From Prorocentrum cordatum (Eukaryota): 64,000 bases of DNA. A program made the position numbers and the translations under genes. The stretch covers positions 1 to 64,000 of the forward strand of contig CAUYUJ010000171.1 of assembly GCA_963575745.1 (NCBI GenBank), read 5' to 3'. This document shows, piece by piece, positions 30,125-48,447 of this stretch. The notes under the pieces were generated by a model. It ran no database searches and was not told the DNA's origin. It worked only from the letters and a program-made list of their open reading frames with translations. Positions within the stretch are counted from its first letter, which is position 1. Every line of letters begins with the position of its first letter.

Positions 30125-30164
<40 letters not shown>

Positions 30165-30172
30165 CGTAGTAC

Positions 30173-30208
<36 letters not shown>

Positions 30209-30235
30209 CAGTAGTAGTAGTAGTAGTAGCGGTAC
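29535..30235. repeat. (TAG)n / (TACTAG)n microsatellite
   Basis: Direct inspection. Confidence 0.95.
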
Positions 30236-30321
30236 TTGCAATGATGCTAACAGTAATGCTCCAAGTATCCTGGCGAAGGACCCAACCATGTGCAGTTGTG
30301 AATATCGCATTGCGGGTGCCG

Positions 30322-33300
30322 CTTTCGGTGGAGCTCCCTGTGGGGCCACGAAACGCTGTGCTGGGTGGGGGTGGCGCATGCGGGCGGCACCACTGGGGCC
30401 TTCGGTGGAGGTCCCTGTGGGGCCACGAAACGCTGTACTGGGCGGGGGTGACGCATGCGGGCGGCACCACTGGGGCCGTCGGTGGAGCTCCCTGTGGGGC
30501 CACGAAACGCTGTGCTGGGTGGGGGTGGCGCATGCGGGCGGCACCACTGGGGCCTTCGGTGGAGCTCCCTGTGGGGCCACGAGATACTGTGCTGGGGTGG
30601 GGGTGACGCATGCGGGCGGCACCACTGGGGCCTTCGGTGGAGGTCCCTGTGGGGCCGCGAAACGCTTTGCTGGGTGGAGGTGCCGAAATGGGCGTGCGGG
30701 ACGCATGCGAGCGGTGGCACTGGGGCCTTCGGTGGAGCTCCCTATGGGGCCACGAAACGTTTGAGGGGTGTGCCGAAATGGGTGTGGCTGACGCATGCGG
30801 GCTGGGGCCACGAAACGTGTGAGGGGTGTGCCGACTTGGATGTGGCTGACGCATGCGGGCGGCAGCACTGGGGCCTTCGGTGGAGCTCCCTACGGGGCCA
30901 CGAAAGCGTGTGAGGGGTGTGCCGAATTGGGTGTGGCTGACGCATGCGGGCGGCAGCACTGGGGCCTTCGGTGGAGCTCCCTATGGGGCCACGAAACGTG
31001 TGAGGGGCGTGCCGAATTGGGTGTGGCTGACGCATGCGGGCGGCGACACTGGAGCCTTCGGTGGAGCTCCCGATGGGGCCACGAAACGTGTGAGGGGTGT
31101 GCCGAACTGGGTGTGGCTGACGCATGCGGGCGGCGGCACTGGGGCCTTCGGTGGAGCTCCCTATGGGGCCACGAAACGTGTGAGGGGTGTGCCGAATTGG
31201 GTGTGGCTGGCGCATGCGGGCGGCGGCACTGGGGCCTTCGGTGGAGCTCCCTATGGGGCCACGAAACGTGTGAAGGGTGTGTCGAATTGGGTGTGGCTGA
31301 CGCATGCGGGCGGCGGCACTGGGGCCTTTGGAGCTCCTTCTGGGGCCACGAAACGTGTGAGGGTCCCGAACTGGGGTGTGGCTGGCGCATGCGGGCGGCG
31401 GCACGGGGCCTTCGGTGGAGCTCCCTATGGGGCCACGAAACGTGTGAGGGGTGTGCCGAATGGGTGTGGCTGACGCATGCGGGCGGCAGCACTGGGGCCT
31501 TCGGTGGAGCTCCCTATGGGGCCACGAAACGTGTGAGGGGTGTGCCGAATTGGGTGTGGCTGACGCATGCGGGCGGCAGGCACTGGGGCCTTCGGTGGAG
31601 CTCCCTATGGGGCCACGAAACGTGTGAGGGGTGTGTCGAATTGGGTGTGGCTGACGCATGCGGGCGGCAGCACTGGGGCCTTCGGTGGAGCTCCCTATGG
31701 GGCCACGAAACGTGTGAGGGGTGTGCCGAATTGGGTGTGGCTGACGCATGCGGGCGGCGGCACTGGGGCCTTTGGTGGAGCTTCCTATGGGGCCACGAAG
31801 CGTGTGAGGGGTGTGCCGAACTGGGTGTGGCTGACGCATGCGGGTGGCAGCACTGGGGCCTTCGGTGGAGCTCCCTATGGGGCCACGGAGCGTGTGAAGG
31901 GTATGCCGAATTGGGTGTGGCTGGCGCATGCGGGCGGCAGCACTGGGGCCTTCGGTGGAGCTCCCTATGGGGCCACGAAACGTGTGAGAGGTGTGACGAT
32001 GATGGTGCTGATGACGATGATGGTGGGTGATGACGATGATCATGATGATGATGATGACGATGATGATGATGACGGTGATGATGATGATGCTGATGGGAGG
32101 AGGGAGGAGGGGGAAGAAGAGGAGAGGAGATGAGAGGAGGAGAGGAACGCGGGGCACCGTCTCTTCAAAACGATGACCCAACACCACAGGATTGTTGGGA
32201 AATTACCCTGGCGAAGGACCCAATCATGCGCAGTTGTGAATATCGCATTGCGGGTGCCGCTTTCGGTGGAGCTCCCTGTGGGGCCACGAAACGCTGTGCT
32301 GGGTGGGGGTGACGCATGCGGGCGGCAGCACTGGGGCCTTCGGTGAAGGTCCCTGTGGGGCCACGGAACGCTGTACTGGGCGGGGGTGACGCATGCGGGC
32401 GGCACCACTGGGGCCGTCGGTGGAGCTCCCTGTGGGGCCACGAAACGCTGTGCTGGGTGGGGCTGACGCATGCGGGCGGCAGCACTGGGGCCTTCGGTGG
32501 AGCTCCCTGTGGGGCCACGAAATGCTGTGCTGGGGTGGGGGTGACGCATGCGGGCGGCACCACTGGAGCCTTCGGTGGAGTTCCCTACGGGGCCACGGGA
32601 GGCTGTGTTTGGTGGAGGTGCCGAAATGAATGTGCGGGACGCATGCGAGCGGTGGCATTGGGGCCTTCGGTGGAGCTCGCCATGGGGCCACGAAACGTGT
32701 GAGGGGTGTGCCGAATTGGGTGTGGCTGACGCATGCGGGCTGGGGCCACGAAGCGTGTGATGGGTGTGCCGAATTGGATGTGGCTGACGCATGCGGGCGG
32801 CGGCACTGCGGCCTTCGGTGGAGCTCCCTATGGGGCCACGAAAGCGTGTGAGGGGTGTGCCGAATTGGGTGTGGCTGACGCATGCGGGCGGCAGCACTGG
32901 GGCCTTCGGTGGAGCTCCCTATGCGGCGGCGGCACTGAAAGCGTGTGAGGGGTGTGCCGAACTGGGTGTGGCTGACGCATGCGGGCGGCGGCGCTGGTGC
33001 CTTCGGTGGAGCTCCCTATGGGGCCACGAAACGTGTGAGGGGTGTGCCGACTTGGGTGTGGCTGACGCATGCGGGCGGCGGCACTGGTGCCTTCGGTGGA
33101 GCTCCCTACGGGGCCACGAAACGTGTGCGGGGTGTGTCGAATTGGGTGTGGCTGACGCATGCGGGCGGCGGCACTGGGGCCTTTGGTGGAGCTCCCTATG
33201 GGGCCACGAAACGTGTGAGGGGTGTGCCGAACTGGGTGTGGCTGACGCATGCGGGCGGCAGCACTGGGGCCTTCGGTGGAGCTCCCTATGGGGCCACGAA

Positions 33301-33765
33301 AGCGTGTGAGGGGTGTGCCGAATTGGGTGTGGCTGACGCATGCGGGCGGCGGCACTGGGGCCTTCGGTGGAGCTCCCTATGGGGCCACGAAACGTGTGAG
33401 GGGTGTGCCGAATTGGGTTTGGCTGACGCATGCGGGCGGCAGCACTGGGGCCTTCGGTGGAACTCCCTATGGGGCCACGAAGCGTGTGAGGGGTGTGTCG
33501 AATTGGGTGTGGCTGACGCATGCGGGCGGCAGCACTGGGGCCTTCGGTGGAGCTCCCTATGAGGCCACGAAGCGTGTGAGGGGTGTGTCGAATTGGGTGT
33601 GGCTGACGCATGCGGGCGGCGGCACTGGGGCCTTTGGTGGAGCTCCCTATGGGGCCACGAAACGTGTGAGGGGTGTGCCGAACTGGGTGTGGCTGGCGCA
33701 TCCGGGCGGCAGCACTGGGGCCTTCGGTTGAGCTCCCTATGGGGCCACGAAACGTGTGAGAGGTG
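30322..33765. repeat. 77/90-bp satellite (ggggccttcggtggagctccctatggggccacgaaacgtgtgaggggtgtgccgaattgggtgtggctgacgcatgcgggcggcggcact), continuing at 44100-44433
   Basis: Dozens of near-identical units in two blocks with the same order of variants. Confidence 0.97.
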
Positions 33766-33885
33766 TGACGATGATGGTGATGATGACGATGATGGTGGGT
33801 GATTACGATGATGATGGTGATGATGATGATGATGATGATGACGATGATGATGGTGACGATGATGATGATGATGCTGATGGGAGGA

Positions 33886-34099
33886 CGTGCAGTGGCACGT
33901 GATATAACTCCTCTCCTCCCGGCAGCGATGGCGGCTGAATGCAGTGGGGCTGTGTTTTCCGTATCGATCGCTCGAACAGTACACAACTATGACGCGTCTT
34001 GAGCCAGTACATTACAGTACGGGCTGTGAATTCGCCGGGCCCCCGGTGAGCTCTAGAGGGCCCCGAGAGAGGAACGTGTGAGGCATGTAACAACTTACT
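33886..34099 (-). repeat. 3' LTR (214 bp)
   Basis: Identical by eye to 43732-43945. Confidence 0.95.
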
Positions 34100-34395
34100 C
34101 TCGTGATGGCTTAATCTACGCAGTAGGCTCTGTGGCCCATGACTAACTGACGGCAACTAAAGTGAGGAGGAACTAATTATTACAACTACGCGTAAGCAAT
34201 GACGTGTGATACGCGGCGGCACAACGGTAGCGGCGGCAGGCAACAACAACAAAAAATGACAACAAGCTGGCCTAACGTACGTGATCTTCTCGCAGTAGAC
34301 GCACCACTCGTGGAGGCCGTACTTCTGCACTATAACGCTCCACAGGTGGTCGATGAACTGTAGCGCTCTAATGCTCTTCAGGTGGCAATCGTCGT

Positions 34396-36960
34396 TCAGC
34401 GTTTCTTCTCGTCGGCGGTCTGGGATTTCGAACTCCATCTCTTCGGTTCGTGCTGTGGTCGCCACTCGCCCTGATTCAACGCATTCATGACGTCGAACCT
34501 ACTGATACTGCCCTTGGTGAGTCCGTCGCACAACATATCCCTCGTGTCTATCCATATCAATTCTGCTATGATGCCGCGGTCCAACCATTCTCGCACTTTC
34601 ATTACTGTGCATGCTAGGTGTCGCTCAGTCGGAAGTTGAAACTCGGTGGCCGTGCACGCCTTGAAAAATGACTCGCTGTCCGTGAAGACTATGATCTTCC
34701 TGCTGAAACCGCCTCGCTCTGCGTATGTCGCCAGTTGGGTAGCCGTCTGCGAGCCTCTGTCAACTTCATGTACAAGACCTGCCAACACAATGCACATAGA
34801 TGCTGCGTCTCCAACTGCTCCTGCTTCTGCGCTGAATGTATTTCTATTCACTCTGGATTGCTTCTTGCTGGTCGTCACGAACATGTGTAGTTTGCCTCCG
34901 ATCTTCGTGCTGGCGTGCTGACACAATCCCATGATGTCTGCTCGAAGTGCTAGGCAATCTGGTTCGTCTGCTCTGAAAGCCGAATCCACAATACAATATA
35001 AAGCTGTGTCTCCCAACATCTGCGAATATCGAACTCCTGCATGATGCGTCTGGATCCACTTCAAACTCAGATTCAAAACCTGTGCGTGCTTGTGCTTGAG
35101 CTGCTTGGCGTTACGCTGACATAGTCCAACGAAAACTTGAATTTCTGGCCTTGATTGAGTTACCCATGACAACGCTCCCAAGAGACTCCTTGCCAAGGTG
35201 TGCAATTCTATGCTGAGATCATCATCTGGTCGGTGAGCTGAATGAGCTGGCAAGGGTATCATGTGCAACTCTGCGATGTAGCCCTTCTGATGTATGTAGA
35301 TCGACTTCTTGTCCGTCGTCTGCTCGTGCTCCACTCCCAGGTACATGAACTTGTTCATATGCTTGCTGCACTTGCCAAATGCAGTCTCCAATGCCTTCCA
35401 TAATTCTTCTCGTGCCGAAGTCGTCGATGATCCTTTTAAGTCATCTAGATGACCGCAAACCAATGAAATACACTTATTCTGGTTGTCGTGCCTCATGTAC
35501 AGCTTGTTGTCAGTCTTGCTTGGAATATGGTGCGTCGCATTCATAACTTGTGCCAACTTCAAGGTAAACAATCTCGGTGCGTCCTTCAGTCCCCAAATCG
35601 GTCGCAAAATACGTAGGCAGTGTTTCTCATGATTGAAGCCCTCCCAGCCCTTGAACGTCCTCAAAACGGAAGCTGTCTTGGCGTCTACAATAAGCTGAAC
35701 TTGCCTGATCAAACCGTCCGTCGTCATTTGATTGATCTCGTCGAACGTAAGGCCCTTGAGGAAAGCTCCTGAGATGTCCAGTGCCCACAAATCATACTCA
35801 TTCTGGCATGCGTGACTGTTCACCACTCGTGTGCTGTACCGGGCTGCGGTTCCGCTGAAGGTCTCCACCTGGGACTGCCTGTCCTTGAATCCCCTCAGCG
35901 TCCATCTACCCTTGACCTCGCGCTGCTCCTTGCCATCAAGAATCGTGATCTTCCACTTGAAAACCCATGTGCCGTCGACGAGGTTGGTGGCGTCCCGCTT
36001 GAGCATGATGCCAACGCTCTCGAGCTCCAACCACTGCTGCAACTCTCTTTTCATAGAACCGATAACCTTTTCATGATGTTGTCGCTGATCATCTGCACTG
36101 AGGTTATGAAGATCTCGTTTGATAACTTGGCTGCTGAGCTTAGTCTTAGATAAGAAATAAACCAAATCATACCCTTCGGGAATGCGCTGCTTCGTTCGAA
36201 ACTCCAGATAAGCGGTATACCAAGGTAAAGCAAACTCCGCCACGGGTTCCTCGCGCTCGAAGTGAAACGTCATGTCCCTTGACTGGTCCACCAAATCGTG
36301 CTTCGTCTGCTGTGCCGGTGCCTCGAAGTACTCGAACTCGGACTGGTCGAAATCGTCGTTCACGCTCCTTCGCTTGAGCAGGGGCTCTGGATTCCTGCTC
36401 GTGATATACGCCTTGAACTCGTCCATCGTAGTGGGTAGCCTGACCTCATTGCCGCGGTGGTCGCAGTAGAGGTCGTCGCCTTCCGCAATGCGCCAGCCTC
36501 CGTCACCTGGATCTGGTGGTGGTCCGCGATCATCGACGCCCGTCCCGGGCTCGAAGTCCTCGTCGCTGATTTCCTCGGTCGTTGTAGGTGAGGCTGGTCG
36601 TACTGCTGGTGTCGTGGGTGCTGCTGTCGATGCTGCTGCGCCTGAGGAGGATGCTGCTGCGCCTGCAGTCGGTGGCTCGTAAGGTGGGGGATCCAAGATA
36701 GGTCCCTCGTCTCGGTCAACTGCTGGATCTGGTCGTTGACGTCGGTCTGCAGGTGCTGCTCGATCCATTTCTTCTTCCTCGTGGGGCAGCGTGCGATACT
36801 TGTGTGCTCGGTCGTCGTCGTGAACTCCGTCATGTTTTCTTCTTCTTCGTGGTACTCTTTCTTCTTCTTCAGGAGGGGGTACCGCCGCTGGTGCTTCAGG
36901 TACTCGATCTGGTTGTGGAGGTGCCGGAGGTGCTGGGTTCATGTCCATGTCTCCTGGCAC
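34396..36960 (-). CDS. Copia reverse transcriptase + RNase H segment
   Basis: RT motifs KGRWTLRGFKD, ALDISGAFLKG, WGLKDAPR, HLDD. RNase H motifs IVDSAF, SAEA, FTDSES, DMLCDGLTKG. In frame with the integrase ORF across a TAA. Confidence 0.95.
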   Translation of the reverse strand: MPGDMDMNPAPPAPPQPDRVPEAPAAVPPPEEEERVPRRRRKHDGVHDDDRAHKYRTLPHEEEEMDRAAPADRRQRPDPAVDRDEGPILDPPPYEPPTAGAAASSSGAAASTAAPTTPAVRPASPTTTEEISDEDFEPGTGVDDRGPPPDPGDGGWRIAEGDDLYCDHRGNEVRLPTTMDEFKAYITSRNPEPLLKRRSVNDDFDQSEFEYFEAPAQQTKHDLVDQSRDMTFHFEREEPVAEFALPWYTAYLEFRTKQRIPEGYDLVYFLSKTKLSSQVIKRDLHNLSADDQRQHHEKVIGSMKRELQQWLELESVGIMLKRDATNLVDGTWVFKWKITILDGKEQREVKGRWTLRGFKDRQSQVETFSGTAARYSTRVVNSHACQNEYDLWALDISGAFLKGLTFDEINQMTTDGLIRQVQLIVDAKTASVLRTFKGWEGFNHEKHCLRILRPIWGLKDAPRLFTLKLAQVMNATHHIPSKTDNKLYMRHDNQNKCISLVCGHLDDLKGSSTTSAREELWKALETAFGKCSKHMNKFMYLGVEHEQTTDKKSIYIHQKGYIAELHMIPLPAHSAHRPDDDLSIELHTLARSLLGALSWVTQSRPEIQVFVGLCQRNAKQLKHKHAQVLNLSLKWIQTHHAGVRYSQMLGDTALYCIVDSAFRADEPDCLALRADIMGLCQHASTKIGGKLHMFVTTSKKQSRVNRNTFSAEAGAVGDAASMCIVLAGLVHEVDRGSQTATQLATYAERGGFSRKIIVFTDSESFFKACTATEFQLPTERHLACTVMKVREWLDRGIIAELIWIDTRDMLCDGLTKGSISRFDVMNALNQGEWRPQHEPKRWSSKSQTADEKKR

Positions 36961-38929
36961 TTATACTTGATCACCGTCGTCTTGGTCTTGATGACGCTGC
37001 TTGAAGAAGAACTGCACACATGATATTTTCCACCAATACGCCTCTGGCCGCTCGTCTTCACAAAGAATTCGCTTCCAGTCCCCGTAGGTGCTGCCATACT
37101 GAATCGTATAATAGCGTACTGATGAATGCTTATACCACCATATCAGGAATGAACTTGGCATTTCTGGTAAGTTTTGAAGATGATGCATGCCACAGCCAAT
37201 CCGTGCTCCAAGACAATGTCGTACTCCTGCCAGAAGTGCTAGATGGATGGTGGCGCTCCACAACTTGGGATACTGTGTGGTACTGCGTGTAAGCTCCCAT
37301 CGTCCTGTCGAGGATACACACCAACCAAATCGTAACACCGCCCTTGAGCAGGAGTCTGCAAACTTGGTCACCTGTGTCATGACTGTGCTGATGCTCGTGA
37401 TACTGCTGTCCTGACTGCTCGCAAAATGGAGAAACTCCATGTACAGCGCCTTCCTGATGTCCGCGATTCGTACCGACATGGGGCGTCCTTGCCATTTACA
37501 ATGTACAAGTCCGTCTCGCATATCTGACATGTCCGTGATCTTGCATGGCCCAATCCAGTTGGTGATGCCCTGCTTGTCGGTCTTCCTCAAAATGTCCACG
37601 AAGTCACCAACCTGCAACTCGAGACCCTGTCCTGAGGTCCGCGTCTGAGACTCCAGAGCTCGCTGTACTCTTGCTGTCGCCGTGGCTTCCACCATTGCCG
37701 TGTTCGCTAGTTCACGTATGCGATGAGCATGCCGGGTTAAGCCTGGTAGTCCTCCCACGTCGTCCTGAAGAGGTGCTGCGCTCACTTGATCAAGATCTTG
37801 AAGCTGTGCTGGTTGTCGTCCGTAGAGCGCCTGATAGGGAGAGAAACCACCAACATTCAATAACTGATTGTGTGCCATGAAGGCCTCCGCCACGATGTAC
37901 TCGTCCGGTATGGCCGTGTCCAATTCTTCTGCTTGAGACTTGATGCGCCGTATGGTGTTGCGAACTATCTCACGATGTCGTTCAACGATGGCTGCCTTGG
38001 AGCCCACTGGCTTGGCTCGTCTCTGAATCTGATGTTGGTCACAATAAATACGAGCTTCGTCTGATTCCAGGGCTCCTTCTTGATCTGCAATGAGATGCTG
38101 AGGTGGTCCGTGTATCGTGACCCAGGTCAGGTGAATCACGCGTAGAATTTCTGGGGGTTCTTTACTGGCTGCAACACCGCCTCCAGAAAACCTCAAGCAT
38201 TCGTCGATAAGATGTACCACAATGAGTTCACCCACAAACAATAGGTCCACCTGCACGTACTCGTTGAACGTAAGAGACAAACGCATGGTCGGCATGTTCT
38301 TCGGTGCTGGCCGCTGCCACATCCGACACGCCCTGCAGGTGTCCACGATGTCGTGCGCCATTTTGCAGACTTCCATTGGCACGCCGGCGTTCTGCAACAT
38401 CCTGATCATGTCGTGTGCCTGCGCGTGCCACCATCTGATATGAAGTACTCGTAAAGTTCGCCGTGCAAGATTCATGTCTGCCGACTTGAGTTGATGCAAT
38501 GCTCGTCCCAGGTCATATGGTGACCATGTCCGCATATCTGTCATGGTAGGTAGTCCGTCGCCCTCGGTCTGCGCGCCTCCTGAGCGAAATCGTTGTACTT
38601 CACCGCTGCCGGTCCCACCACGCTGTCGTGGCGCATCCGCCAGCCGCAAACGTCCTTCGCCTTCTGCTGGTGCTGCTGCTGCTGCGGCGGCTGCCGATGG
38701 GGCCGCCGGTGCTGGTGCTTCAGGAGGAGGAGGAAGCGGAAGCTCCAGTCCTGGGTCGGGATCCACTCGATTGGCTGCTGTAGGTTCGTCATGGAGACGA
38801 GGTCGTGGATCTCGAGGTAGCTTCGTTGCCCTTCGCTTACCTGATATCCTGATAGCCGCTTCTCCCCACTTGCAGTCGAGGCCGTATGTATGTCCTGCGT
38901 GATCTCGGGGCTTGAACGTCTTGCAAGAT
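36961..38929 (-). CDS. Copia integrase segment
   Basis: HHCC (LHIRWWH...CRAC) and DDE core (VQVDL, IADQEG, IVER). Confidence 0.93.
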
Positions 38930-41167
38930 TCAAGATGGACAAGCCCATTCTCTTGGTGCAATCATTGATCGCAAACATGAACTCGGATCTCTGGTGTGCC
39001 TGGGGTCGAACATGTCTCGATTTGATCTGCAAGCCGAACACTTGACCCAATCAGGCATCTTAGGCTCGACCCTGCGCTTCCTGGGTGCCTGGCCGGGCTC
39101 GGCTGGCACCGCTGCTGCAGCTGCTGCCGATGCTGCCTCAGCGGGAGGTGCAACTGCCGCAAGAGGATCTGGTGCCGGCGGTAGTGGTGCCGATGCTGCC
39201 GCTGCCGCGGCCGCTGCCGATCTCTGCCGTCGCTTGGGTCGCTTCCGTGCTGCCGCTGCTGCTCCTGGTGCTTGTTCTTCTTCGCTCTCGCTCTCGTCGT
39301 CGCCCGCCGGGAAGAATATTTGGTGCAATCGCAAATGCCGAAGTAGATCGTGAATACCTGTAGCAACCAACTTGGCCATTTCCCATGTCCGTAGCCGTGC
39401 GTCGTGAGACCGACCGCCTGATATAGTGGCATGTTGGTGACTGCGATCACATTTCAGATTCAACAGCGGTCTGATCAACAGGTAGTGCGATGCCCAAAAC
39501 TCGGTGGGCTTCAACAAGTGTAAGAAGGGAGGTCTATTCTCGCGAAGGTTGGTCATACACTGATGAACAATGCACCAATGGAGTTGAAGATGATTCCGTA
39601 CGTAATCCCATTCCGGCATGTTGTACATCTCCGTCGTCTGCGGATGTTCCGATAGAAAATGCCGATGATGTCGTAGTTGGAATTCTGCAACTCTGCCTGC
39701 AAGCTTAGCGAGGGGTACAGATGTCCGCCTACTCTGCTTCCAGGTCTCCGGGTTAGTGAACTTGTTCAACGTCTGCCAGCCTGCTAGTCCTGTACAGGGA
39801 ACGCTGAGAATCGTGATCAGAACCTTGTTCGATTTGAGATACTGCCAAAGTGCCGCTTCCTGCGTAGGGTCCAAGAGATCGATGCCTACAATGATGTCGA
39901 AGTTAAGCCCGATCTTGGTCTCGTGGAAGCGGTGGATCAATATCTGCGATGTTCTAGCGTTGCCGCCACATATCTCCACAACGTCGATGTAGTGGTCCTT
40001 GCTCTGTGAGCTATACTGAGCGGGATAAGACCAGTCTGCCATAAAGCTGGTAAACGCGTCGTACTTGAACTGCTTCGGCACGTGGCTGTAGGTCTTGTCG
40101 TTGGTGTCTGATCCACTCAAGCCACGTAGCGAAGAGACAAATACCGAGCAGGTGTCTTGGTCCCGTTCGTCGCCCATGATCTGGTCCTCGTCGTCGTAGA
40201 TCTCGGTGCTGGTCTGGTTGAGTGCCCACAACGCCTGCTTGAGACTAGAGTCGCCGAGCCCGCAGTCGTCGAAGTGCTGCTCCACCTTGAACTTCTTCTT
40301 CTTGCTCGGCGTGGCGTGCGTTGGGTCGATAGCCTGTGCTTTCCGATGCCGTTCTCTCTCTTTGGCCCGTGCAGCTGCATCGGTAGGGCATGCCGTGGAA
40401 TCTTCATCGAGAACGTCGAACATAACCTGGTCGCCACTGCTGTTGTCCGTCGTCCTCGGAGGGGAGTGCGCTGATACCGATGTAGCCGTCGGTGGTGTAA
40501 CAACTTGCTCTCGTGATGGCTTGTGCTCTGTCTTGAACAACAAATCAAGGAGGCTCGCGACTGCCGCCGGTGCCTCCGCGTAGTCGATCATGCCCGGGGC
40601 GCCCAAATCAAAGTTGGCCTCCAGGCGGATGGTCGAGGTATGACTGCCATCCTGAAGCCGCACCATGGTAGTCTTCAGGCTGCCGCCCTCGTGTTGCTTG
40701 CCGATGAAGTCGCTGAAGTGGTGCTGTCGCCAAACTGCCTGCACGCGCTCGTTAGCCTCAAGAAGAACCGATCGTTGCAGTGATATCTGCTGTTCGCTGA
40801 GCTGGCTGATAAGCTGGAGCCGTCGCCCATGCGATCTCGTAAACTGTCCTGTCGTAGGAGGTCCTGGAACGCATACCCACAACAGAACTGGCCGATGCTG
40901 ATGCAATAACGCCTGCATGTGATTGCTGCTGTTCGCCGTGGTGCGCCGTGAACTATGATTGTAGAGCTGGACTTTGAAGCGCTGACTACATGCATAACTT
41001 CGTTGGCTGTCAACGTCGTCAATGATCCAAATTGTGGGCGCGGAATTGTCATGCACGGGGGAAGGAGATCTTGGCAGAGATTGAGTTGGGGTGTTGCCGT
41101 GCGTCTTGACGACGGCTTGCTCCCTCCGGGGAGCCTCGGCGGGACGCACCGCCGAGCGGCCGACTCC
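38930..41167 (-). CDS. C5-cytosine DNA methyltransferase-like segment (degenerate copy, then intact-looking copy) with CxxC-H-C zinc-finger-like motifs
   Basis: Motif I VVEICGGNARTS, motif IV SVPCTG, motif VI FLSEHP, then HQCM...KPTEF. In frame with gag-PR across a TAG. Confidence 0.8.
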   Translation of the reverse strand, partial: GVGRSAVRPAEAPRREQAVVKTHGNTPTQSLPRSPSPVHDNSAPTIWIIDDVDSQRSYACSQRFKVQLYNHSSRRTTANSSNHMQALLHQHRPVLLWVCVPGPPTTGQFTRSHGRRLQLISQLSEQQISLQRSVLLEANERVQAVWRQHHFSDFIGKQHEGGSLKTTMVRLQDGSHTSTIRLEANFDLGAPGMIDYAEAPAAVASLLDLLFKTEHKPSREQVVTPPTATSVSAHSPPRTTDNSSGDQVMFDVLDEDSTACPTDAAARAKERERHRKAQAIDPTHATPSKKKKFKVEQHFDDCGLGDSSLKQALWALNQTSTEIYDDEDQIMGDERDQDTCSVFVSSLRGLSGSDTNDKTYSHVPKQFKYDAFTSFMADWSYPAQYSSQSKDHYIDVVEICGGNARTSQILIHRFHETKIGLNFDIIVGIDLLDPTQEAALWQYLKSNKVLITILSVPCTGLAGWQTLNKFTNPETWKQSRRTSVPLAKLAGRVAEFQLRHHRHFLSEHPQTTEMYNMPEWDYVRNHLQLHWCIVHQCMTNLRENRPPFLHLLKPTEFWASHYLLIRPLLNLKCDRSHQHATISGGRSHDARLRTWEMAKLVATGIHDLLRHLRLHQIFFPAGDDESESEEEQAPGAAAAARKRPKRRQRSAAAAAAAASAPLPPAPDPLAAVAPPAEAASAAAAAAVPAEPGQAPRKRRVEPKMPDWVKCSACRSNRDMFDPRHTRDPSSCLRSMIAPREWACPS

Positions 41168-43561
41168 CTAGTGGGAGGTCCTGGCCGCGACGTCGCTCTG
41201 GTGCTCCGTCGCGTACTGCGGCTCCGCCTTGAAGGTGACCTTCCTCTTGTGCTTGTCGAACTCCGTGCATGGTACCAGCGGGTGTCCACTCATGCTGCTC
41301 TCGATCTTCAACGTAGAAGTACCATGAGGTGTGTTGATGTATACTCGGCCTGGCCCGCATAGATGTATCTCGTTATTGACCAGGTCGATGACTGCCCGCT
41401 GATGTCGCATAGACTTGATACCCCACAACGCTGGTACTGTAGATGGATCCTCCTCGGTGCCGACGACTGGGGCCGTGTAGGTAGTGTCGCTCTTCACGTC
41501 GTTCGCGATGACCTTCAGGGGAATCGTGATGGCCCACTCGACGAGCTGGCTCTCCTTGCCGACACCTGACACGTTGATGGGCTTGGGAAGCTTTTGCCAC
41601 TTCACCTTGTCCATCATGCCTTGCTCGCTCAAGATGTTCAGGACGCGCTTGATGAACAGGTTGTCCACCAGGTTGTCGCGTGCGCCGGTGTCCACCAGAA
41701 GTCCTTCCCGTCCTTCGCCTGGCAACTTCGTCTTGAGGAGGAAGATCTGCTCGTCGTTCAGGTTCGCCGTGTTGAAACTGCTGTTCTCGTCCAGCTCCAC
41801 GTCCAGGTTCCACCAGGGAAAGAATCTCGCTGATATCTGCTCTCCGTCATTCGCTGTCTGATCCAGGATGCGAAGCTGCTGCAAGATCGATGTACGTTGA
41901 TGTTCTGCCGCGATTGCCTGCTGAGGCTGTTGGGGATTGAAGCTCCTGGTCATCAATTCCTGCAGCTGCCGCTCCTGGTGTATGCCGTGGTCCGTGTTGA
42001 TGTCCGTCGGGATACCCATGCCGTCTGAGACAATCTGAGACCATTCCAATACTGGTGCATACGTCGCTGGCTCTTCGTGGGGTTCGTGACGCTGATGCTG
42101 ATATCCTGCATGAAAGAAATGTTGCTGCATCATATACATGTGCCCGGGTGCCATGGATTGATCCTGTCCGCCTGCCGAGGGAGATGCCGATGCCGATGCC
42201 GAGCCTGCCGCTTGCGTCAGGTGGTGAAGCTTGGGACAGTTCCTCCGCAGGTGTTCGTCGCTACCGCACTCGTGGCACTTCATCACTTCGCCTGTGACTG
42301 GGTCCTTTCTGTTCTTGCCGTGTCCACGGAAGCCGCCGCCCTTCCCCTTTCCGCCCTTGAAGTACGTGGGGTCCTGCTGCTCTTCGACGGGGAAGTGGCT
42401 TGGCTTGCCGAATTGACGCCGAAATCCTCCTTTGCCTTGTCCTGAGCGCCGACCGTAGTATCGCCGATTGAACCGTCTGAACTTCGTCGTCCTCTTCGTG
42501 TAGGCTCTATAACGCTTCTTTATGTTAAGGTATGTCTCATACAACACCGTCGTGATATTCGTCCTGTTGGCCGGCACTCCAGGGGGAAGGAGACTCGATG
42601 CATATGCCTCTATCGCCTCGTCCGTGCACTCTGGGTCCTGCTGCTCTTCGTCCGACTCCGTGTCGCTGTCGCCAAAGAAATCCTCAAACGTGTAGTGCTC
42701 GTCTGGCGTGTTGGCGTACGGGTCGCTCGTGGGGTACACTGCTTGATGTGGCATGGCCGCTGCCGCGGCCGCGCCGTCGCCCCAGGCCGTCGCAGCCTGA
42801 GGCGGCTCCACGTTTCCGAAATATGACAAATGTGCCTGCTGTCCAGGATGTGCCGCGTTCGAGTGTACGCCATGCGGATGATGTTCCAAGATATGTGCCT
42901 GCTGTCTGATGTGCCGCTTGAGAATATTCATCTGGTCTTCCGTCGTCGGGAGCTGTCCGTTCAGGGGAATGAGTAGCTGAGACCACATGACCGGCGCCAC
43001 TTTGAGTGCTCGCAATAATATCCACGCCAATCCTTGGGGTCCCAACGCGAAATTCTGCAAGAGGTTCGTCGCCCTGTACACCGTGATATCGAACCTCGAG
43101 AGTGCCTGATCTATCGATTCGCCTTGCATTCTGCTGAAGCCCAACAACTGAGAAAGAAGTCTGATGCTCTGTTCTTCGTCCAGCTCGCCGAAACGTCGTA
43201 GAAGATTCCGCAACATAATAGTAATGCCCGTCACGTGCAACATCTGCTGCTGTGTGTAGTCCCACTCTTGCCGTCCATTTGATAACTCATCCACGTTCAT
43301 CTCTCTGCCCAGGACCCTCGCCATGCCTCCGAGCTGTAGAACTGCGGCTGGTCCCTGACGTGCAATGGGTACCTCTGTGGCCGCGCTCCACAATATCAGG
43401 TCCTGAGCGTAGACCCACAACGGGTAGCTGGCCTCGAACTCCGGCGACCACGAGGGAGGCGTCTTCGCGTTCGCCATGTCAGGCTGAGGATGTTGGCCAG
43501 GAATGAACCGTTGGGGTCCGCCCTGCTGCACTGGGGGCTGTCCGCCCTTGCCGCCGAACAT
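41168..43561 (-). CDS. Gag-protease polyprotein
   Basis: ATG at 43561 (MFGGKGG), zinc knuckle CHECGSDEHLRRNC, aspartic protease LLVDTGA. Confidence 0.93.
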   Translation of the reverse strand: MFGGKGGQPPVQQGGPQRFIPGQHPQPDMANAKTPPSWSPEFEASYPLWVYAQDLILWSAATEVPIARQGPAAVLQLGGMARVLGREMNVDELSNGRQEWDYTQQQMLHVTGITIMLRNLLRRFGELDEEQSIRLLSQLLGFSRMQGESIDQALSRFDITVYRATNLLQNFALGPQGLAWILLRALKVAPVMWSQLLIPLNGQLPTTEDQMNILKRHIRQQAHILEHHPHGVHSNAAHPGQQAHLSYFGNVEPPQAATAWGDGAAAAAAMPHQAVYPTSDPYANTPDEHYTFEDFFGDSDTESDEEQQDPECTDEAIEAYASSLLPPGVPANRTNITTVLYETYLNIKKRYRAYTKRTTKFRRFNRRYYGRRSGQGKGGFRRQFGKPSHFPVEEQQDPTYFKGGKGKGGGFRGHGKNRKDPVTGEVMKCHECGSDEHLRRNCPKLHHLTQAAGSASASASPSAGGQDQSMAPGHMYMMQQHFFHAGYQHQRHEPHEEPATYAPVLEWSQIVSDGMGIPTDINTDHGIHQERQLQELMTRSFNPQQPQQAIAAEHQRTSILQQLRILDQTANDGEQISARFFPWWNLDVELDENSSFNTANLNDEQIFLLKTKLPGEGREGLLVDTGARDNLVDNLFIKRVLNILSEQGMMDKVKWQKLPKPINVSGVGKESQLVEWAITIPLKVIANDVKSDTTYTAPVVGTEEDPSTVPALWGIKSMRHQRAVIDLVNNEIHLCGPGRVYINTPHGTSTLKIESSMSGHPLVPCTEFDKHKRKVTFKAEPQYATEHQSDVAARTSH

Positions 43562-43719
43562 AGCTGATACCAAAAAACTAAGGAATAACTGAATTGACTG
43601 TCGAAGCCCTCTTTCTCGCACTCTGTGCTGTCGAGGCTGATGCCCGCAGCGCTGATGTCGGAGAAGGTGATGAGCTCGCAGTGGTACCGTCGCCTGGCGG
43701 CGGGAGGGGGAGCACCTCT

Positions 43720-43731
43720 GCTCCGCTACCA
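43720..43731 (-). promoter_or_regulatory. Primer-binding site, tRNA-iMet type (TGGTAGCGGAGC)
   Basis: Starts with TGG directly after the 5' LTR and is complementary to a ...CUCCGCUACCA 3' end typical of an initiator tRNA acceptor arm. Confidence 0.8.
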
Positions 43732-43945
43732 CGTGCAGTGGCACGTGATATAACTCCTCTCCTCCCGGCAGCGATGGCGGCTGAATGCAGTGGGGCTGTG
43801 TTTTCCGTATCGATCGCTCGAACAGTACACAACTATGACGCGTCTTGAGCCAGTACATTACAGTACGGGCTGTGAATTCGCCGGGCCCCCGGTGAGCTCT
43901 AGAGGGCCCCGAGAGAGGAACGTGTGAGGCATGTAACAACTTACT
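43732..43945 (-). repeat. 5' LTR (214 bp)
   Basis: Followed by PBS and gag. Confidence 0.95.
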
Positions 43946-44664
43946 GAGGAGGGAGGGGAGGGAAGAGGAGGAGAGGAGAGGAGAGGAGGAGAGGAACGCG
44001 GGGCACCGTCTCTTCCAAACGAGGACCCAACACCACACGATGGTTGGGAAATTATCCTGGCGAAGGACCCAACCATGTGCAATTGTGAATATTGCATTGC
44101 GGGCGGCAGCACTGGGGCCTTCGGTGGGGCTCCCTATGGGGCCACGAAACGTGTGAGAGGTGTGCCGAATTGGGTGTGGCTGACGCATGCGGGCGGCGGC
44201 ACTGGGGCCTTTGGTGGAGCTCCCTATAGGGCCACGAAACGTGTGAGGGGTGTGCCGAACTGGGTGTGGCTGGCGCATGCGGGCGGCAGCACTGGGGCCT
44301 TCGGTGGAGCTCCCTATGGGGCCACGAAACGTGTGAGTGGTATGCCGAATTGGGTGTGGCTGACGCATGCGGGCGGCAGCACTGGGGCCTTCGGTGGAGC
44401 TCCCTATGGGGCCACGAAACGTGTGAGAGGTGTGACGATGATGGTGGTGATGACGATGATGGTGGGTGATGACGATGATGATGATGATGATGATGATGAT
44501 GATACCGATAATGGTGATGACGATGATGATGATGATGCTGATGGGAGGAGGGAGGAGGGGGAAGAGGAGGAGAGGAGAGGAGGAGAGGAGGAGAGGAACG
44601 CGGGGCACCGTCTCTTCCAAACGAGGACCCAACACCACAGGATGGTTGGGAAAAAGAAATGGAA

Positions 44665-44678
44665 ATAGTCGTAGTCGC

Positions 44679-44716
<38 letters not shown>

Positions 44717-44721
44717 CAGTC

Positions 44722-44778
<57 letters not shown>

Positions 44779-45061
44779 AGTAGTAGTAGCAGCAGAAGTA
44801 GTAGTAGTTAGTAGTCGTAGAAGTAGTAGTCGTAGTCGTAGCGATAGTAGTCGTAGTAGTAGCCGTAGTCATCGTAGACGTCGTCCTCGTAGTCGTAGTA
44901 GTACTAATGAATGTAGTGGTAGTGGTACCGGTAGTGGTGGTGGTAGTTGTACTAGTAGATGCACTCGAGAAAGCAATACTGAAACAATAACAGTCGTAGT
45001 AGTAGTTGTAGTAGTAGGAGTAGTCGTAGTAGTAGACATGGCCGCAGTAGTAATGGTAAGA

Positions 45062-45093
<32 letters not shown>

Positions 45094-45134
45094 TAGTTGT
45101 AGTTGTAGTAGTAGTAGTAGTAGTAGTAGTAGTC

Positions 45135-45185
<51 letters not shown>

Positions 45186-45593
45186 ACAGTAGTCGAAGAA
45201 ATCGTAGTAGTAGTAGTAGCAGTAGTAGTAGTAGTAGTAGTAGTAGTAGTCGTAGTAGTGATAGGCGCGTCGTAGTACTATTCTGCGCAGTAGTACTTGC
45301 AAGCGTCGTAGTAGCAGCACTCGTACCAGGAGTAATGGGAGCCTTAGTCGTAGTGATAGCAGCCGTACTTGTAGCAGTAAAAGTAATAGTGCTGCTGCTA
45401 CTACTAATCCTACTACCAGTAATACAAGTGCTTGTGGTGTTGGTCGTAGAAGAGGTGGTAATTGTAGTTAAAAAAAGTAGGAGTAGTAGAAGCCATCCGA
45501 TCACTAGTAGTAGTCGTAGTCGTAGTCGTAGTAGTTGGGGTATCAATAATGTTGAAAAATACGAGTAGTAGTAGTAGTAGTAGTAGTAGTAGA

Positions 45594-45626
<33 letters not shown>

Positions 45627-46235
45627 TGTTGTTGTAGTCAACGTAGTAGTAGTAGTGACAATAGCAATAGTAGTGGTCCTAGTAGTAGTAATAGTAGTAG
45701 TGATAGAAGTAATAATTGTGGTTGTAATCGTCAGCGAAAAAATGATAGTAGTATCAATGGTCGTAGTAGTAGCCGTAGAAATACGAATAGAGAAAGTAGT
45801 AGCCGCCGTAAAAGTATGAGTAGTAGTGGTAGTAGTAGTGGTAGTAGTAGTGGTAGTAGGAGTGGAAGCGGTAGTGGTAGTAGTAGTGGTAGCAGGAGAG
45901 GTAGTAGTGGTAGTGTTCGTAATTCGAAAAATAATCGTACAGCTACTACTACTACTACTACTACTACTACCACACTACTACTATTGTAACTATTACTACT
46001 ACTGCTACCACTGCTACTTCTATTAGCGGTTGTAGTGGTGCTTGTGGCGGTAGTAGTACTAATCGTGATAGTAGTAGTAGTAGTAGTAGTAGTAGTCGTC
46101 GTCGTCGTCGTCGTCGTCGTCGCTGTCGTCGCAGTAGGCGTGGTAGTGAAATAATCACAATAGTAGTCGTAGTCGTCGTTGTAGAAGACATAATGCGAGT
46201 AGTAGTAGTAGTATTAGTAGTAGTAGTAGTAGTCT

Positions 46236-46271
<36 letters not shown>

Positions 46272-46420
46272 CCGCGATCGTAGTATGTTGTTCTTGTTGT
46301 TTTTCTGTACTGCTGAAAATAGCGGTGATACTAATAGTAGTAGTAATATTAGTGGTAGTACAGGTAGTAGGTAGATTGCAATGAGTAGCAGCAGTAGTGA
46401 TAGCAGTACGGGTGCGAGTA
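44665..46420. repeat. Degenerate (TAG)n microsatellite
   Basis: Direct inspection. Confidence 0.93.
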
Positions 46421-47093
46421 GTACGTGTAGTAGGACACATAAGTGACATCGTAGGACCACTATGGGTCGTATGAGAGGTAGTAGTGGGAGGAAATGGTGA
46501 ATGACAAATGACAAAGAGATGGGTTAGAAAGGGAAGCGAGGAAGATTGTCGAGGAGGAACCAAGGCGAAGGCCGGAGAAAACTGCACAATATGGGAGCTG
46601 GGGGCGAACATCGAATGGGTTCGGTTGGAGAGAGGGAGGCCCAGAAGGATGATTCAGAAGGGGGGGCCAAGAGGGGGATGCCAGAAGAGAGGCCGCAGGG
46701 AGGGCCGGAGAGGAAGCTTCAGAAGGAGAGCTGGGAAGGTTGACGAGGAGGTTTTGGAGGGAAGGTTGAAAAGGTGGGTTGGGGAAAGGGCGGGGGGGGA
46801 GACGGGGGAACGACGGGAGAAGCGAGGACTAGGGCAGGAACAAGGAGGAGGAATCGCAGGGCCACGCAACTCTGGCGGCCGCGGCGAAAGGAGACACATG
46901 GAGGAAGATCCCATGAATCCCAAATCCGGACTACACACACGAACACACACACGCGCACACACATGCACGCATACGCAGACACACGCACGCACACACGCAC
47001 ACACGCACACAGACACGCACACACGCACACGCGCACGCATGGCTGGACCCACGCGCTGTAGAAGCCAGCGGTCGCGATCGCCCAGGCCTGCCC

Positions 47094-47176
<83 letters not shown>

Positions 47177-47866
47177 CCGCTCGTCGTCGTCGTAAGTCGC
47201 GAACGCCATCGTGCGTTTCCGGCAGCAATGGCCGTGGCCGGAGGCCACTAAATCACACACGGCGGCCACATCTGTAGCCAGCGGTCGCAAAATATGAAGA
47301 GGCGAGTTGAGGAGAGCGTCAGAGAAATGAAGGGGAAAGGGGGATCGTGGGGGCCAGCCGAGCCGGAGGAAACGAGAGTGGAAGCAGAAGGAGCAGCAGG
47401 AAGAGAAAGAGGAGGAGGAGGAGGAGGACGAGGACGAGGAGAGGAGGAGGAGGAGGAGGAGGAGAAGGAGAAGGAGAGGAAGACACCAGGAAGCCAAAAC
47501 CACACACACGAGTGGACTCACGTCCAGAACAGCTGGAAGCCACCCGCGGAAGACACGTGCGGGCAGAGGGCGTGCCTGGCCACACAGGGCACGCGGCACG
47601 AGCGCTGGAAAGACGTGAGGCCAGTGCATAGGCAGCCCCGGCTGATGGGCCTGTCTTCCACCACCACCAACACAAGTTGGTGGAGGACGCGGAGGAGGAC
47701 GAAGAGGAGAAGGACGAGGAGGAGGATGAGGAGGAGGAGGAGGAGGAGGACCCCCTGCCCCTCCAACTTATAGTGGCGGTGGTGGAAAACAGGCACATCA
47801 CTGGAGGCGGAGGCAGAAGCGCACAGACCGAAAGATACCGGAGCGACGGAGCGACGCGCGCCAGAC

Positions 47867-48416
47867 CATGCTCGATGATCCTCAGAACGCGTGATAGCCC
47901 CAGCGTGTGTTTGTCCATCGAGGCCCTTTCGATACGACGCAGGCGATGTAATGATCTACTGGTTGGGCTGAAGGGGGTAACACACACACATTGGGCTAGC
48001 ACACGTCCGGAGGATCATCGACGCGAATGTGTAAGCACCACGGCATGCATGTCAGAACCACAGCAAGACTTGGAGCACAGAGACCGAAAGACACCGTAGT
48101 GGCGGAGCGACGCGCGCCACACCGTGCGTGTGAGCACCACGGCATGCATGTCAGCAGAACCACAGCACGACTTGGAGCACAGAGATCGAAAGACACCGGA
48201 GCGACGGAGCGACGCGCGCCACACCGTGCGTGTGAGCACTACGGCATGCACGTCAGAACCACAGCAAGACCTTGGGGCACCGCAGGACGCCTGTACTGGG
48301 CCAACCACTCCCTGTGCGCTTCCGCCGGTCGCGGGGGTGGGGTGCGGGGGAAGGCGACCCCCCGTCACGGACGTTACGGAGGAGGAGGAGGAGGAGGAGG
48401 AGGAGGAGGAGGAGGA

Positions 48417-48447
<31 letters not shown>

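What the first reader, a model, noticed from the sequence alone, without database searches (positions are those of the whole stretch)
39340..41040. Retrotransposon-borne DNA methyltransferase preceded by a degenerate (pseudo-enzyme) copy
Seen: an intact-looking C5-MTase (EICGG, VPC, EHP, KPT) at ~39340-39995. Upstream, at ~40600-41040, a segment aligns to it by eye (LLHQHRPVLLWVCVPG vs YLKSNKVLITILSVPC; LISQLSEQQISLQRSVLLEAN vs LAGRVAEFQLRHHRHFLSEHP) but lacks the catalytic PC and the glycine-rich motif I. Known: DNMT-carrying LTR and DIRS retrotransposons are described in Symbiodinium (de Mendoza et al. 2018). Inference: an active plus inactive tandem pair, reminiscent of DNMT3A/3L, that could methylate the element's own CpG-rich cDNA. 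The tandem pseudo-domain may be undescribed.
Basis: partly seen in the sequence, partly recalled or inferred. Interest (0 to 1): 0.75.

Follow-up and report, generated by a model that had tools for sequence, protein, structure and literature searches.

The report
Hidden tandem methyltransferase-like pair in retrotransposon
A young copia-type jumping gene of a dinoflagellate carries, between its protease and integrase, a very divergent DNA-cytosine-methyltransferase-like domain preceded by a degenerate copy of itself, a pairing that standard domain searches miss and that recurs in a very large family of such elements.

Summary
The region lies in a 745-aa reading frame on the minus strand (38933-41167). 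That frame sits inside a complete Ty1/copia LTR retrotransposon (33886-43945) with identical 214-nt LTRs and a 5-bp target duplication.

The downstream domain (about 39311-39994):
- It matches no Pfam, NCBIfam or PDB sequence model.
- It belongs to a family of 1132 cluster representatives.
- Gly-Gly, Pro-Cys and Glu are kept in 110-112 of 113 members.
- 9 of 33 members weakly hit a phage DNA-methyltransferase family that genuine C5 enzymes also hit.

The upstream segment (about 40526-41038):
- It is a true paralogue of the downstream domain (profile-profile E 1.4e-7; reversed and shuffled controls P 0.18-0.87).
- It has the same fold but lacks the Gly-Gly and the Cys.
- The pair occurs in 37 of 43 relatives long enough to show it.

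Catalysis, the substrate and contact between the two domains are not shown. This copy is slightly damaged, while sibling copies are open at two of the three breaks. I found no description in print; the 2018 reference paper states that dinoflagellate Copia elements lack DNMT domains. Verdict: a new variant of a known kind.

The parts
33886..43945 (-). Complete Ty1/copia-type LTR retrotransposon (10,060 nt), flanked by the 5-bp target-site duplication TCCTC at 33881-33885 and 43946-43950. It is inserted into a 90-nt satellite array.
   Evidence: domain order.
43732..43945 (-). 5' LTR (214 nt), followed at 43720-43731 by a primer-binding-site-like TGGTAGCGGAGC.
   Evidence: 100% identical to 33886-34099 (family D10); sequence read.
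33886..34099 (-). 3' LTR (214 nt).
41171..43640 (-). Gag with a CCHC zinc knuckle (42230-42280) and an aspartic protease (DTGA at about 41690; protease roughly 41290-41760). The frame ends at an in-frame TAG, 41168-41170. The gag start is approximate.
   Evidence: translation; zf-CCHC E 0.014, below the Pfam cut-off; the protease motif was read in the translation and placed by hand count; TAG.
40526..41038 (-). Upstream degenerate methyltransferase-like domain (residues ~44-214 of the 745-aa frame). It has no Gly-Gly and no catalytic Cys. It keeps P93, W97, Q127 and E137 (40757-40759). This copy lacks the family's conserved Cys at position 172 and the CxC..H cluster.
40259..40390 (-). Conserved linker motif (residues 260-303; family consensus YPTE..R.K...EQHFDDCG) between the two domains.
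   Evidence: function unknown.
39311..39994 (-). Downstream C5-methyltransferase-like domain (residues ~392-619). Gly-Gly at 39962-39967, Pro-Cys Cys458 at 39794-39796, Glu507 at 39647-39649, Lys553, and a probable zinc cluster C537/C573/H577/H579. Arg593 (39389-39391) stands where the family has Trp.
38975..39046 (-). Zinc-finger-like CxxC..H..C tail (residues 708-731), conserved in relatives, where it is often doubled, ahead of the integrase.
   Evidence: no Pfam model matches.
36964..38961 (-). Integrase frame (HHCC finger at about 38323-38442). It is out of frame with the 745-aa frame in this copy and closed by an in-frame TAA at 36961-36963.
   Evidence: There is no Pfam rve hit in the window, but rve is found in 8 of 25 long relatives at the same place. 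Sibling copies differ at both breaks.
34399..36960 (-). Reverse transcriptase (RVT_2, 35272-35979) and the RNase H region.
   Evidence: PF07727 E 1.8e-12.

Best explanation
**Shown**
- The finding lies in the pol region of a recently inserted Ty1/copia retrotransposon of a dinoflagellate. The closest named proteins are from Prorocentrum cordatum.
- Between protease and integrase the element encodes a two-domain module that arose by internal duplication of a very divergent C5-cytosine-methyltransferase-like domain.
- The downstream copy keeps the parts a C5 methyltransferase needs for chemistry: a glycine-rich loop and two acidic positions where S-adenosylmethionine binds, the Pro-Cys nucleophile, and the Glu of the ENV motif.
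- The upstream copy has lost the cofactor loop and the cysteine.
- The pair is the normal state of a very large family of such elements.

**Inferred**
- The downstream domain is an active SAM-dependent C5 pyrimidine methyltransferase.
- It methylates the element's own nucleic acid, most likely the new cDNA around integration.
- The dead upstream copy serves as a built-in partner. It would stabilise the enzyme or supply nucleic-acid contacts that the missing target-recognition domain would otherwise give, as DNMT3L does for DNMT3A.
- The copy in the window is itself probably not autonomous.
For: **Element**
- Identical 214-nt LTRs, a TCCTC target duplication and a primer-binding-site-like sequence.
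- RVT_2 E 1.8e-12.
- Order of parts: gag-PR-X-IN-RT.

**Family**
- 1132 cluster representatives at E<=1e-3, and 444 at E<=1e-10.
- Of 25 long relatives, 14 carry RVT_2 and 8 carry rve downstream of the domain.

**Conservation in 113 downstream domains**
- G401 110/112, G402 111/112, D424 96/113, D430 98/113.
- C458, E507, P509 and K553 each 112/113.

**Fold of the downstream domain**
- AlphaFold pLDDT 87.2, pTM 0.83.
- Foldseek: 28 of the 29 listed rows with E<=1e-3 are C5 DNA methyltransferases.

**Sequence links**
- 9 of 33 members hit phrog_757 'DNA methyltransferase' (best E 5.3e-5), and 7 of 33 hit phrog_2882.
- E. coli Dcm and 2 of 3 viral C5 enzymes also hit phrog_757.
- The extended hhalign path to a C5 profile puts the glycine loop beside that of motif I (about one column off), PC on PC and E on the E of ENV.
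- The best PDB profile hit is DNMT2 at motif IV.
- The nearest Pfam-bearing ESM Atlas cluster is PF00145, score 0.86.

**Upstream copy**
- hhalign E 1.4e-7, with clean controls.
- Reciprocal HMM hits between the two domains.
- Own AlphaFold model, built from upstream-only rows, pLDDT 82.9.
- Same leading structural matches, including DNMT3L.
- The pair is present in 37 of 43 relatives with at least 330 aa upstream of the downstream domain.

**Selection among copies**
- 24 of the 40 listed differences to sibling copies are synonymous.
Against: - No curated model recognises the domain. PF00145 is absent from the window frame and from 25 long relatives. It is seen in 1 of 33 members, at E 0.13.
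- Profile-profile comparison with Dcm-type C5 enzymes is not significant (P 0.015 and 0.041) and covers motif IV only.
- TM-scores are low (0.28-0.41).
- The arginines of motif VIII, a recognisable motif IX/X and a full target-recognition domain are missing.
- CpG is not depleted in the element (observed/expected 0.96 against 0.86 for the window), so there is no mutational trace of methylation.
- This copy has an in-frame TAG and TAA and a frameshift. It departs from the consensus at five of the 30 most conserved positions.
- Two close Prorocentrum relatives lack most of the upstream domain, so it may be dispensable.
- No activity, cofactor-binding or contact data exist.
Confidence: 0.55

Rival explanations
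1. The downstream domain is an RNA methyltransferase working like DNMT2. It would methylate cytosine in the element's genomic RNA or in the primer tRNA rather than in DNA.
For: - The best PDB profile hit is DNMT2.
- The five best Foldseek matches of the upstream paralogue are DNMT2.
- There is no DNA target-recognition domain.
- CpG is not depleted in the element.
Against: - Rows whose Z differs by under 1 are tied, so the fold cannot settle the substrate.
Confidence: 0.15
2. Both domains are non-catalytic relics of a methyltransferase. They are kept as a nucleic-acid- or chromatin-binding module, for example to read or hold cytosines, or to steer integration.
For: - The motif VIII arginines, motif IX/X and the target-recognition domain are lost.
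- No Pfam match.
- The upstream copy shows that the fold can persist without catalytic residues.
Against: - Cys458 and Glu507 are kept in 112 of 113 members at 30-40% overall identity, and the Gly-Gly loop in 110 and 111 of 112, together with the acidic positions. That is hard to explain without chemistry.
- The upstream copy shows what loss of constraint looks like in the same protein.
Confidence: 0.2
3. The downstream domain is a generic Rossmann-fold domain unrelated to C5 methyltransferases, and the motifs resemble theirs by chance.
For: - hhalign to Dcm-type profiles is not significant.
Against: - C5 methyltransferases head every structural list.
- The glycine loop, PC and E lie in the methyltransferase order, and the extended alignment puts PC and E on those motifs and the loop beside motif I.
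- 9 of 33 members hit a phage DNA-methyltransferase family that true C5 enzymes also hit.
Confidence: 0.05
4. The upstream segment is not related to the downstream domain, and the by-eye alignment is chance.
For: The pairwise BLASTP of the window's two segments finds nothing (best E 4.1).
Against: - Profile-profile E 1.4e-7, and 9.1e-8 in the reverse direction, with reversed and 20 shuffled controls at P 0.18-0.87.
- A profile built only from upstream segments picks up downstream domains in the next round, and the reverse also happens.
- Same strand and helix order in independent models.
Confidence: 0.03

Closest known systems
SymbioLINE-Dnmt and SymbioDIRS-Dnmt3 retrotransposons of Symbiodinium (de Mendoza et al. 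2018, PMC5890265; sections 6 and 7 read)
   Same: - Dinoflagellate retrotransposons that carry a cytosine-methyltransferase-type domain in their coding region.
- The proposed role is self-methylation of the retrotranscribed copy.
   Different: - Those domains are found with Pfam PF00145 and sit in LINE ORF1 or in a DIRS pol. They come as single domains.
- Here the element is Ty1/copia, the domain lies between protease and integrase, PF00145 does not match, and it comes as a dead-plus-live tandem pair.
- The paper states that Symbiodinium Copia elements lack any DNMT domain.
- I had no sequences of those elements, so no phylogeny was made.
DNMT3A-DNMT3L (active enzyme with an inactive paralogue)
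   Same: - An inactive paralogue that has lost cofactor and catalytic motifs sits beside an apparently competent one.
- DNMT3A, DNMT3B and DNMT3L are among the structural matches of both domains.
   Different: - The two are fused in one polypeptide and arose by duplication inside this family. They are closer to each other (E 1.4e-7) than either is to canonical enzymes.
- They are not members of the DNMT3 clade as far as tested.
- Contact and stimulation are untested.
Small prokaryotic and phage C5 DNA methyltransferases (M.HhaI; prophage CP-933R protein 3g7u; PHROG families 757 and 2882)
   Same: - The only sequence-level hits.
- Motifs I, IV and VI in the same order.
   Different: - There is no target-recognition domain. 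About 35 residues with a Cys/His cluster stand in its place.
- Motif VI reads E-Q/N-P rather than ENV.
- Motif VIII keeps Q but not the arginines.
Retrotransposon DNMT3 of streptophyte LTR elements, and the 'EpiLTR' elements with DAM plus DNMT (bioRxiv 10.64898/2026.05.21.726589, passages read; PMC12344493, passages read)
   Same: LTR retrotransposons that captured DNA-methyltransferase domains into pol.
   Different: - Those are recognisable DNMT3- or DNMT4-like domains, placed elsewhere in pol, and without a degenerate twin.
- The preprint lists only SymbioDIRS and SymbioLINE for dinoflagellates.

Membership tests
C5 cytosine methyltransferase superfamily (Pfam PF00145 DNA_methylase) | Match to the curated family model above its cut-off. 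| tested here: not met
   - No PF00145 hit for the 745-aa frame.
- 0 of 25 long relatives.
- 1 of 33 members, at E 0.13.
- NCBIfam gives none.
C5 cytosine methyltransferase superfamily (Pfam PF00145 DNA_methylase) | Class I methyltransferase fold most like solved C5 enzymes over the whole catalytic domain. | tested here: met
   - The 12 best of 48,161 chains are C5 enzymes.
- The margin over generic Rossmann folds is only about 2 Z.
C5 cytosine methyltransferase superfamily (Pfam PF00145 DNA_methylase) | Motif I glycine-rich SAM loop, and acidic residues after strands 2 and 3. | tested here: met
   - G401 110/112, G402 111/112, D424 96/113, D430 98/113.
- The motif names and their roles are recalled, not computed.
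C5 cytosine methyltransferase superfamily (Pfam PF00145 DNA_methylase) | Motif IV Pro-Cys nucleophile. | tested here: met
   - C458 112/113.
- It is aligned on the PC of DNMT2 and Dcm.
C5 cytosine methyltransferase superfamily (Pfam PF00145 DNA_methylase) | Motif VI Glu (ENV). | tested here: met
   - E507 112/113, followed by Q/N and P509 112/113 instead of N-V.
- It is aligned on the E of ENV in the extended hhalign path.
C5 cytosine methyltransferase superfamily (Pfam PF00145 DNA_methylase) | Motif VIII QxRxR arginines; motifs IX/X; target-recognition domain. | tested here: not met
   - The consensus reads DQCxxGL, with no arginines.
- Only about 35 residues with C573/H577/H579 lie between the last strand and the C-terminal helix.
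- K553 (112/113) may stand in for an arginine; that is inference.
C5 cytosine methyltransferase superfamily (Pfam PF00145 DNA_methylase) | SAM-dependent methyl transfer to C5 of cytosine. | not testable with these tools
   Needs biochemistry.
Ty1/copia LTR retrotransposon | Direct LTRs, target-site duplication, and a primer-binding site next to the 5' LTR. | tested here: met
Ty1/copia LTR retrotransposon | Integrase upstream of a copia-type reverse transcriptase (RVT_2). | tested here: met
   - RVT_2 E 1.8e-12.
- An HHCC finger frame lies upstream.
- rve stands before RVT_2 in relatives.
Active/inactive methyltransferase pair of the DNMT3A-DNMT3L kind | One paralogue without cofactor and catalytic motifs beside one that keeps them. 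| tested here: met
Active/inactive methyltransferase pair of the DNMT3A-DNMT3L kind | Physical contact and stimulation of the active partner. | not tested
   The complex predictor was not available, and the AlphaFold output gives no inter-domain information.
SymbioLINE-Dnmt / SymbioDIRS-Dnmt3 | PF00145-positive DNMT inside a LINE ORF1 or a DIRS pol. | tested here: not met
   The host element is Ty1/copia and PF00145 is not matched.

The most novel reading that the evidence does not exclude
A very large clade of dinoflagellate Copia retrotransposons, so far read as lacking any DNMT, encodes a fused pseudo-enzyme/enzyme cytosine methyltransferase of a new, minimal type with no target-recognition domain. 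It is active and methylates new cDNA copies. Given the copy numbers, it would contribute materially to the unusual near-complete CpG methylation of dinoflagellate genomes. Some relatives also carry a 2OG-oxygenase-like insert, which would make the module a small base-modification toolkit.
Probability: 0.15. Interest if true: 0.85.

Novelty: new variant of a known kind. Interest (0 to 1): 0.68.

Why it matters
Retrotransposons that carry their own DNA methyltransferase are a known but rare way of dealing with host silencing. In dinoflagellates they have been reported only for LINE and DIRS elements.

If the module described here is active, three things would follow:
- The most abundant retrotransposon class of these genomes would also be self-methylating.
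- The census of dinoflagellate DNMTs, which was based on Pfam, would be a large undercount.
- A fused dead-plus-live pair without a target-recognition domain would be a compact natural model of how pseudo-enzymes support methyltransferases.

If it is not active, it is still a clear case of a captured enzyme fold kept for another purpose across a very large family.

Tried and rejected
**Searches that gave nothing useful**
- Pairwise BLASTP of the two segments: nothing.
- phmmer of the frame against PDB: only irrelevant weak hits. NCBIfam: nothing.
- hhalign of the family against a shallow Dcm-orthologue profile (P 0.015) and against 43 viral C5 enzymes plus Dcm (P 0.041). Not significant; global mode gave nothing.
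- PHROG scan of the 21 upstream-domain rows: 0 methyltransferase hits.

- No whole genome is held for the window.
- Complex prediction for upstream against downstream domain was not available, so contact between the domains is untested.

**Taxonomic range**
- A cluster look-up of 10 relatives gave no organism names.
- The profile search for longer proteins gave 8 unnamed hits, 6 with RVT_2.
- So the range beyond the Prorocentrum cordatum names is unknown.

**Expression and habitat**
- No RNA holder is listed among the sequencing runs.
- The metagenome runs with small shares were laid only as contigs and say nothing firm about habitat.

**Other**
- CpG depletion as a trace of methylation: not seen.
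- Earlier notes of this scan: none by place, by sequence or by words.
- A first reading of the flanking 90-nt arrays as part of long LTRs was dropped once the 214-nt LTRs and the target duplication were read.
- A script that was to place motifs by their letters did not run. The coordinates of parts were worked out by hand from residue numbers, so the protease and gag limits are approximate.

**Literature searches for a prior description**
- PMC5890265: sections 6 and 7 read.
- PMC9998398, PMC12344493, PMC11572971, PMC5776459 and 10.64898/2026.05.21.726589: passages read.
- None describes a DNMT-like domain in dinoflagellate Copia elements. Supplements were not read.
Full report
**What is there**

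On the minus strand, a stop-to-stop frame of 745 aa runs from 41167 down to 38930. Its neighbours are as follows.
- Upstream: a gag-protease frame with a CCHC knuckle (Pfam E 0.014, below the cut-off) and a DTGA protease motif.
- Downstream: a frame with an HHCC integrase finger.
- Further downstream: a frame with a copia-type reverse transcriptase (RVT_2, E 1.8e-12).

The order gag-PR-X-IN-RT is that of Ty1/copia.

The element is bounded by two 214-nt LTRs (33886-34099 and 43732-43945) that are 100% identical. It has a 5-bp duplication TCCTC on both sides and a TGGTAGCGGAGC primer-binding-like site next to the 5' LTR. The 90-nt arrays on both sides are the satellite into which it inserted, not part of it. 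The closest named proteins (89% and 79% identity) are 'unnamed protein product' of Prorocentrum cordatum. The window is therefore most likely from that dinoflagellate or a close relative.

**The downstream domain**

Pfam, NCBIfam and a sequence search of the PDB do not recognise anything in the 745-aa frame. A search of 1.84 billion cluster representatives finds 1132 relatives at E<=1e-3 (444 at <=1e-10, 77 at <=1e-30). Their common core is residues ~390-612.

Of 25 long relatives scanned, 14 carry RVT_2, 8 carry rve downstream of the core, and none carries PF00145. So this is a domain of a very large copia-type family.

In 113 aligned domains, at roughly 30-40% identity, these positions are nearly fixed:
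- G401 (110/112) and G402 (111/112)
- N422, D424, D430 and L431
- C458 (112/113)
- E507 and P509 (112/113 each)
- Q536 and C537
- K553 (112/113)
- C573, H577 and H579

AlphaFold on a 33-row alignment gives pLDDT 87.2 and pTM 0.83, with a seven-strand alternating fold. The structural matches are:

| Search | Result |
|---|---|
| Foldseek against the PDB | 33 matches at E<=1e-3. Of the 29 listed, 28 are C5 DNA methyltransferases, but TM-scores are only 0.28-0.41. |

**Sequence-level links are weak but consistent**
- The best PDB hit of the family profile is DNMT2 at E 1.5, aligned at motif IV.
- hhalign to Dcm-type profiles gives P 0.015 and 0.041, again at motif IV.
- The extended hhalign path puts PC on PC and E on the E of ENV; the glycine loop lies beside that of motif I, about one column off.
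- PF00145 appears in 1 of 33 members, at E 0.13.
- The strongest link is through phage families. 9 of 33 members hit phrog_757 'DNA methyltransferase' (best E 5.3e-5) and 7 of 33 hit phrog_2882. E. coli Dcm and 2 of 3 viral C5 enzymes hit phrog_757 as well (E 0.063, 3.8e-4, 3.6e-3).
- The ESM Atlas places the domain with unnamed clusters at 0.96. The nearest Pfam-bearing cluster is PF00145 at 0.86, which is a lead only.

I take the domain to be a very divergent offshoot of the C5-methyltransferase superfamily.

Missing from it are the arginines of motif VIII, a recognisable motif IX/X and a normal target-recognition domain. In their place are about 35 residues with a Cys/His cluster that, together with C537, looks like a zinc site. 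That last point is inference.

**The upstream segment**

Residues ~42-160 are conserved upstream of the core in relatives. A profile made only from upstream segments picks up downstream domains in its next round, and the downstream profile picks up upstream segments.

Clean upstream-only and downstream-only profiles align with probability 94%, E 1.4e-7, over 96 columns. Reversed profiles (P 0.62, 0.67) and 20 column shuffles (P 0.18-0.87) give nothing.

An AlphaFold model built from an alignment that holds upstream segments only has pLDDT 82.9 and the same order of strands and helices. Its best matches are again C5 methyltransferases:
- Foldseek: the top five are DNMT2, E 4.6e-6 to 1.8e-4, with several DNMT3L chains.

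The upstream domain has no Gly-Gly loop and no catalytic Cys. Only P93, W97, L123, Q127, E137 and a Cys at 172 stand out. It is closer to the downstream domain than either is to canonical enzymes, so it arose by internal duplication.

Of 43 relatives with at least 330 aa ahead of the downstream domain, 37 have it.

**State of this copy**

The window's copy has three breaks:
- an in-frame TAG between the protease and the module;
- a frameshift between the module and the integrase;
- an in-frame TAA between the integrase and the reverse transcriptase.

Contigs of a run that holds 63% of the stretch's sampled words show sibling copies that differ at two of these places:
- GAA stands in place of the TAA.
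- Seven letters are missing near 38924. That puts the module and the integrase in one frame.
- Trp stands where the window has Arg593. Trp is the family consensus there.

The TAG was not among the differences listed.

Of the 40 listed differences (151 in all; the tool shows the best supported), 24 are synonymous. That fits copies descending from working elements.

The window's copy also departs from the consensus at P449, P456, S512 and G540. It lacks the upstream domain's Cys/His cluster. Two close Prorocentrum relatives lack most of the upstream domain.

**How it most likely works**
- Shown: the anatomy, the fold, the conserved residues, the duplication and the spread of the family.
- Inferred: the downstream domain binds SAM and uses Cys458 and Glu507 to methylate C5 of cytosine in the element's own nucleic acid. 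The dead twin acts as a built-in partner.
- Alternatives: an RNA-directed enzyme of the DNMT2 kind, or a non-catalytic binding module.
- The near-fixed Cys, Glu and Gly-Gly argue for chemistry. The missing arginines and recognition domain, and the lack of CpG depletion (0.96 against 0.86), argue for caution.

**Comparison with what is known**

De Mendoza et al. 2018 (sections 6 and 7 read) found DNMTs in LINE and DIRS elements of Symbiodinium using PF00145. They state that the Copia superfamily there lacks any DNMT domain.

Later papers and a 2026 preprint (passages read) add nothing on dinoflagellate Copia elements. Five literature searches found no description of this module. Supplements and subscription journals were not covered.

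**Limits**
- There are no biochemical data.
- Contact between the domains is untested.
- The taxonomic range is unknown.
- The margins over generic Rossmann folds are small.

Noticed in passing
window 41168-41170: An in-frame TAG separates gag-protease from the module. In many relatives the called protein begins a few residues before the upstream domain, which suggests an ORF boundary at this place across the family. It could be a programmed readthrough or frameshift site that sets the Gag:Pol ratio.
   Followed up: partly
window 36961-36963 and about 38924: The TAA stop and a 7-nt surplus that breaks the module-integrase frame are absent from sibling copies in public runs. So this young insertion, with identical LTRs, is a defective copy, perhaps mobilised in trans.
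   Followed up: yes
window 30669-33829 and 43956-44435: The element sits inside a 90-nt satellite array. Further 9-nt and 77-nt arrays and long low-complexity tracts with strong GC skew fill much of 24000-34000 and 44000-58000.
   Followed up: no
P0065 residues ~285-505 and P0033 (relatives, not in the window): Two relatives carry an extra domain of about 220 aa with an HxD...H pattern between the dead and the live methyltransferase-like domains. The ESM Atlas gives 2OG-FeII_Oxy_3 (0.89) and Tet_JBP (0.87) as the nearest Pfam-bearing clusters, which are leads only. Pfam and PDB sequence searches find nothing. A base-oxidising domain here would fit a base-modification module.
   Followed up: partly
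window 40259-40390: The linker motif (family consensus YPTE..R.K...EQHFDDCG) between the two domains is conserved across the family. It may be a protease site, a localisation signal or a docking peptide.
   Followed up: no
window 38975-39046: There is a CxxC..H..C zinc-finger-like tail between the module and the integrase. It is doubled in many relatives and has no Pfam model.
   Followed up: no
P0122 (relative): One short relative has an amidohydrolase (PF01979, E 1.3e-36) fused behind the methyltransferase-like domain. This is probably a chimeric metagenome contig.
   Followed up: no
P0066 (relative, 3301 aa): One long relative has a RING finger (PF13639, E 2.2e-8) far upstream of the module, in the same protein as RVT_2.
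   Followed up: no
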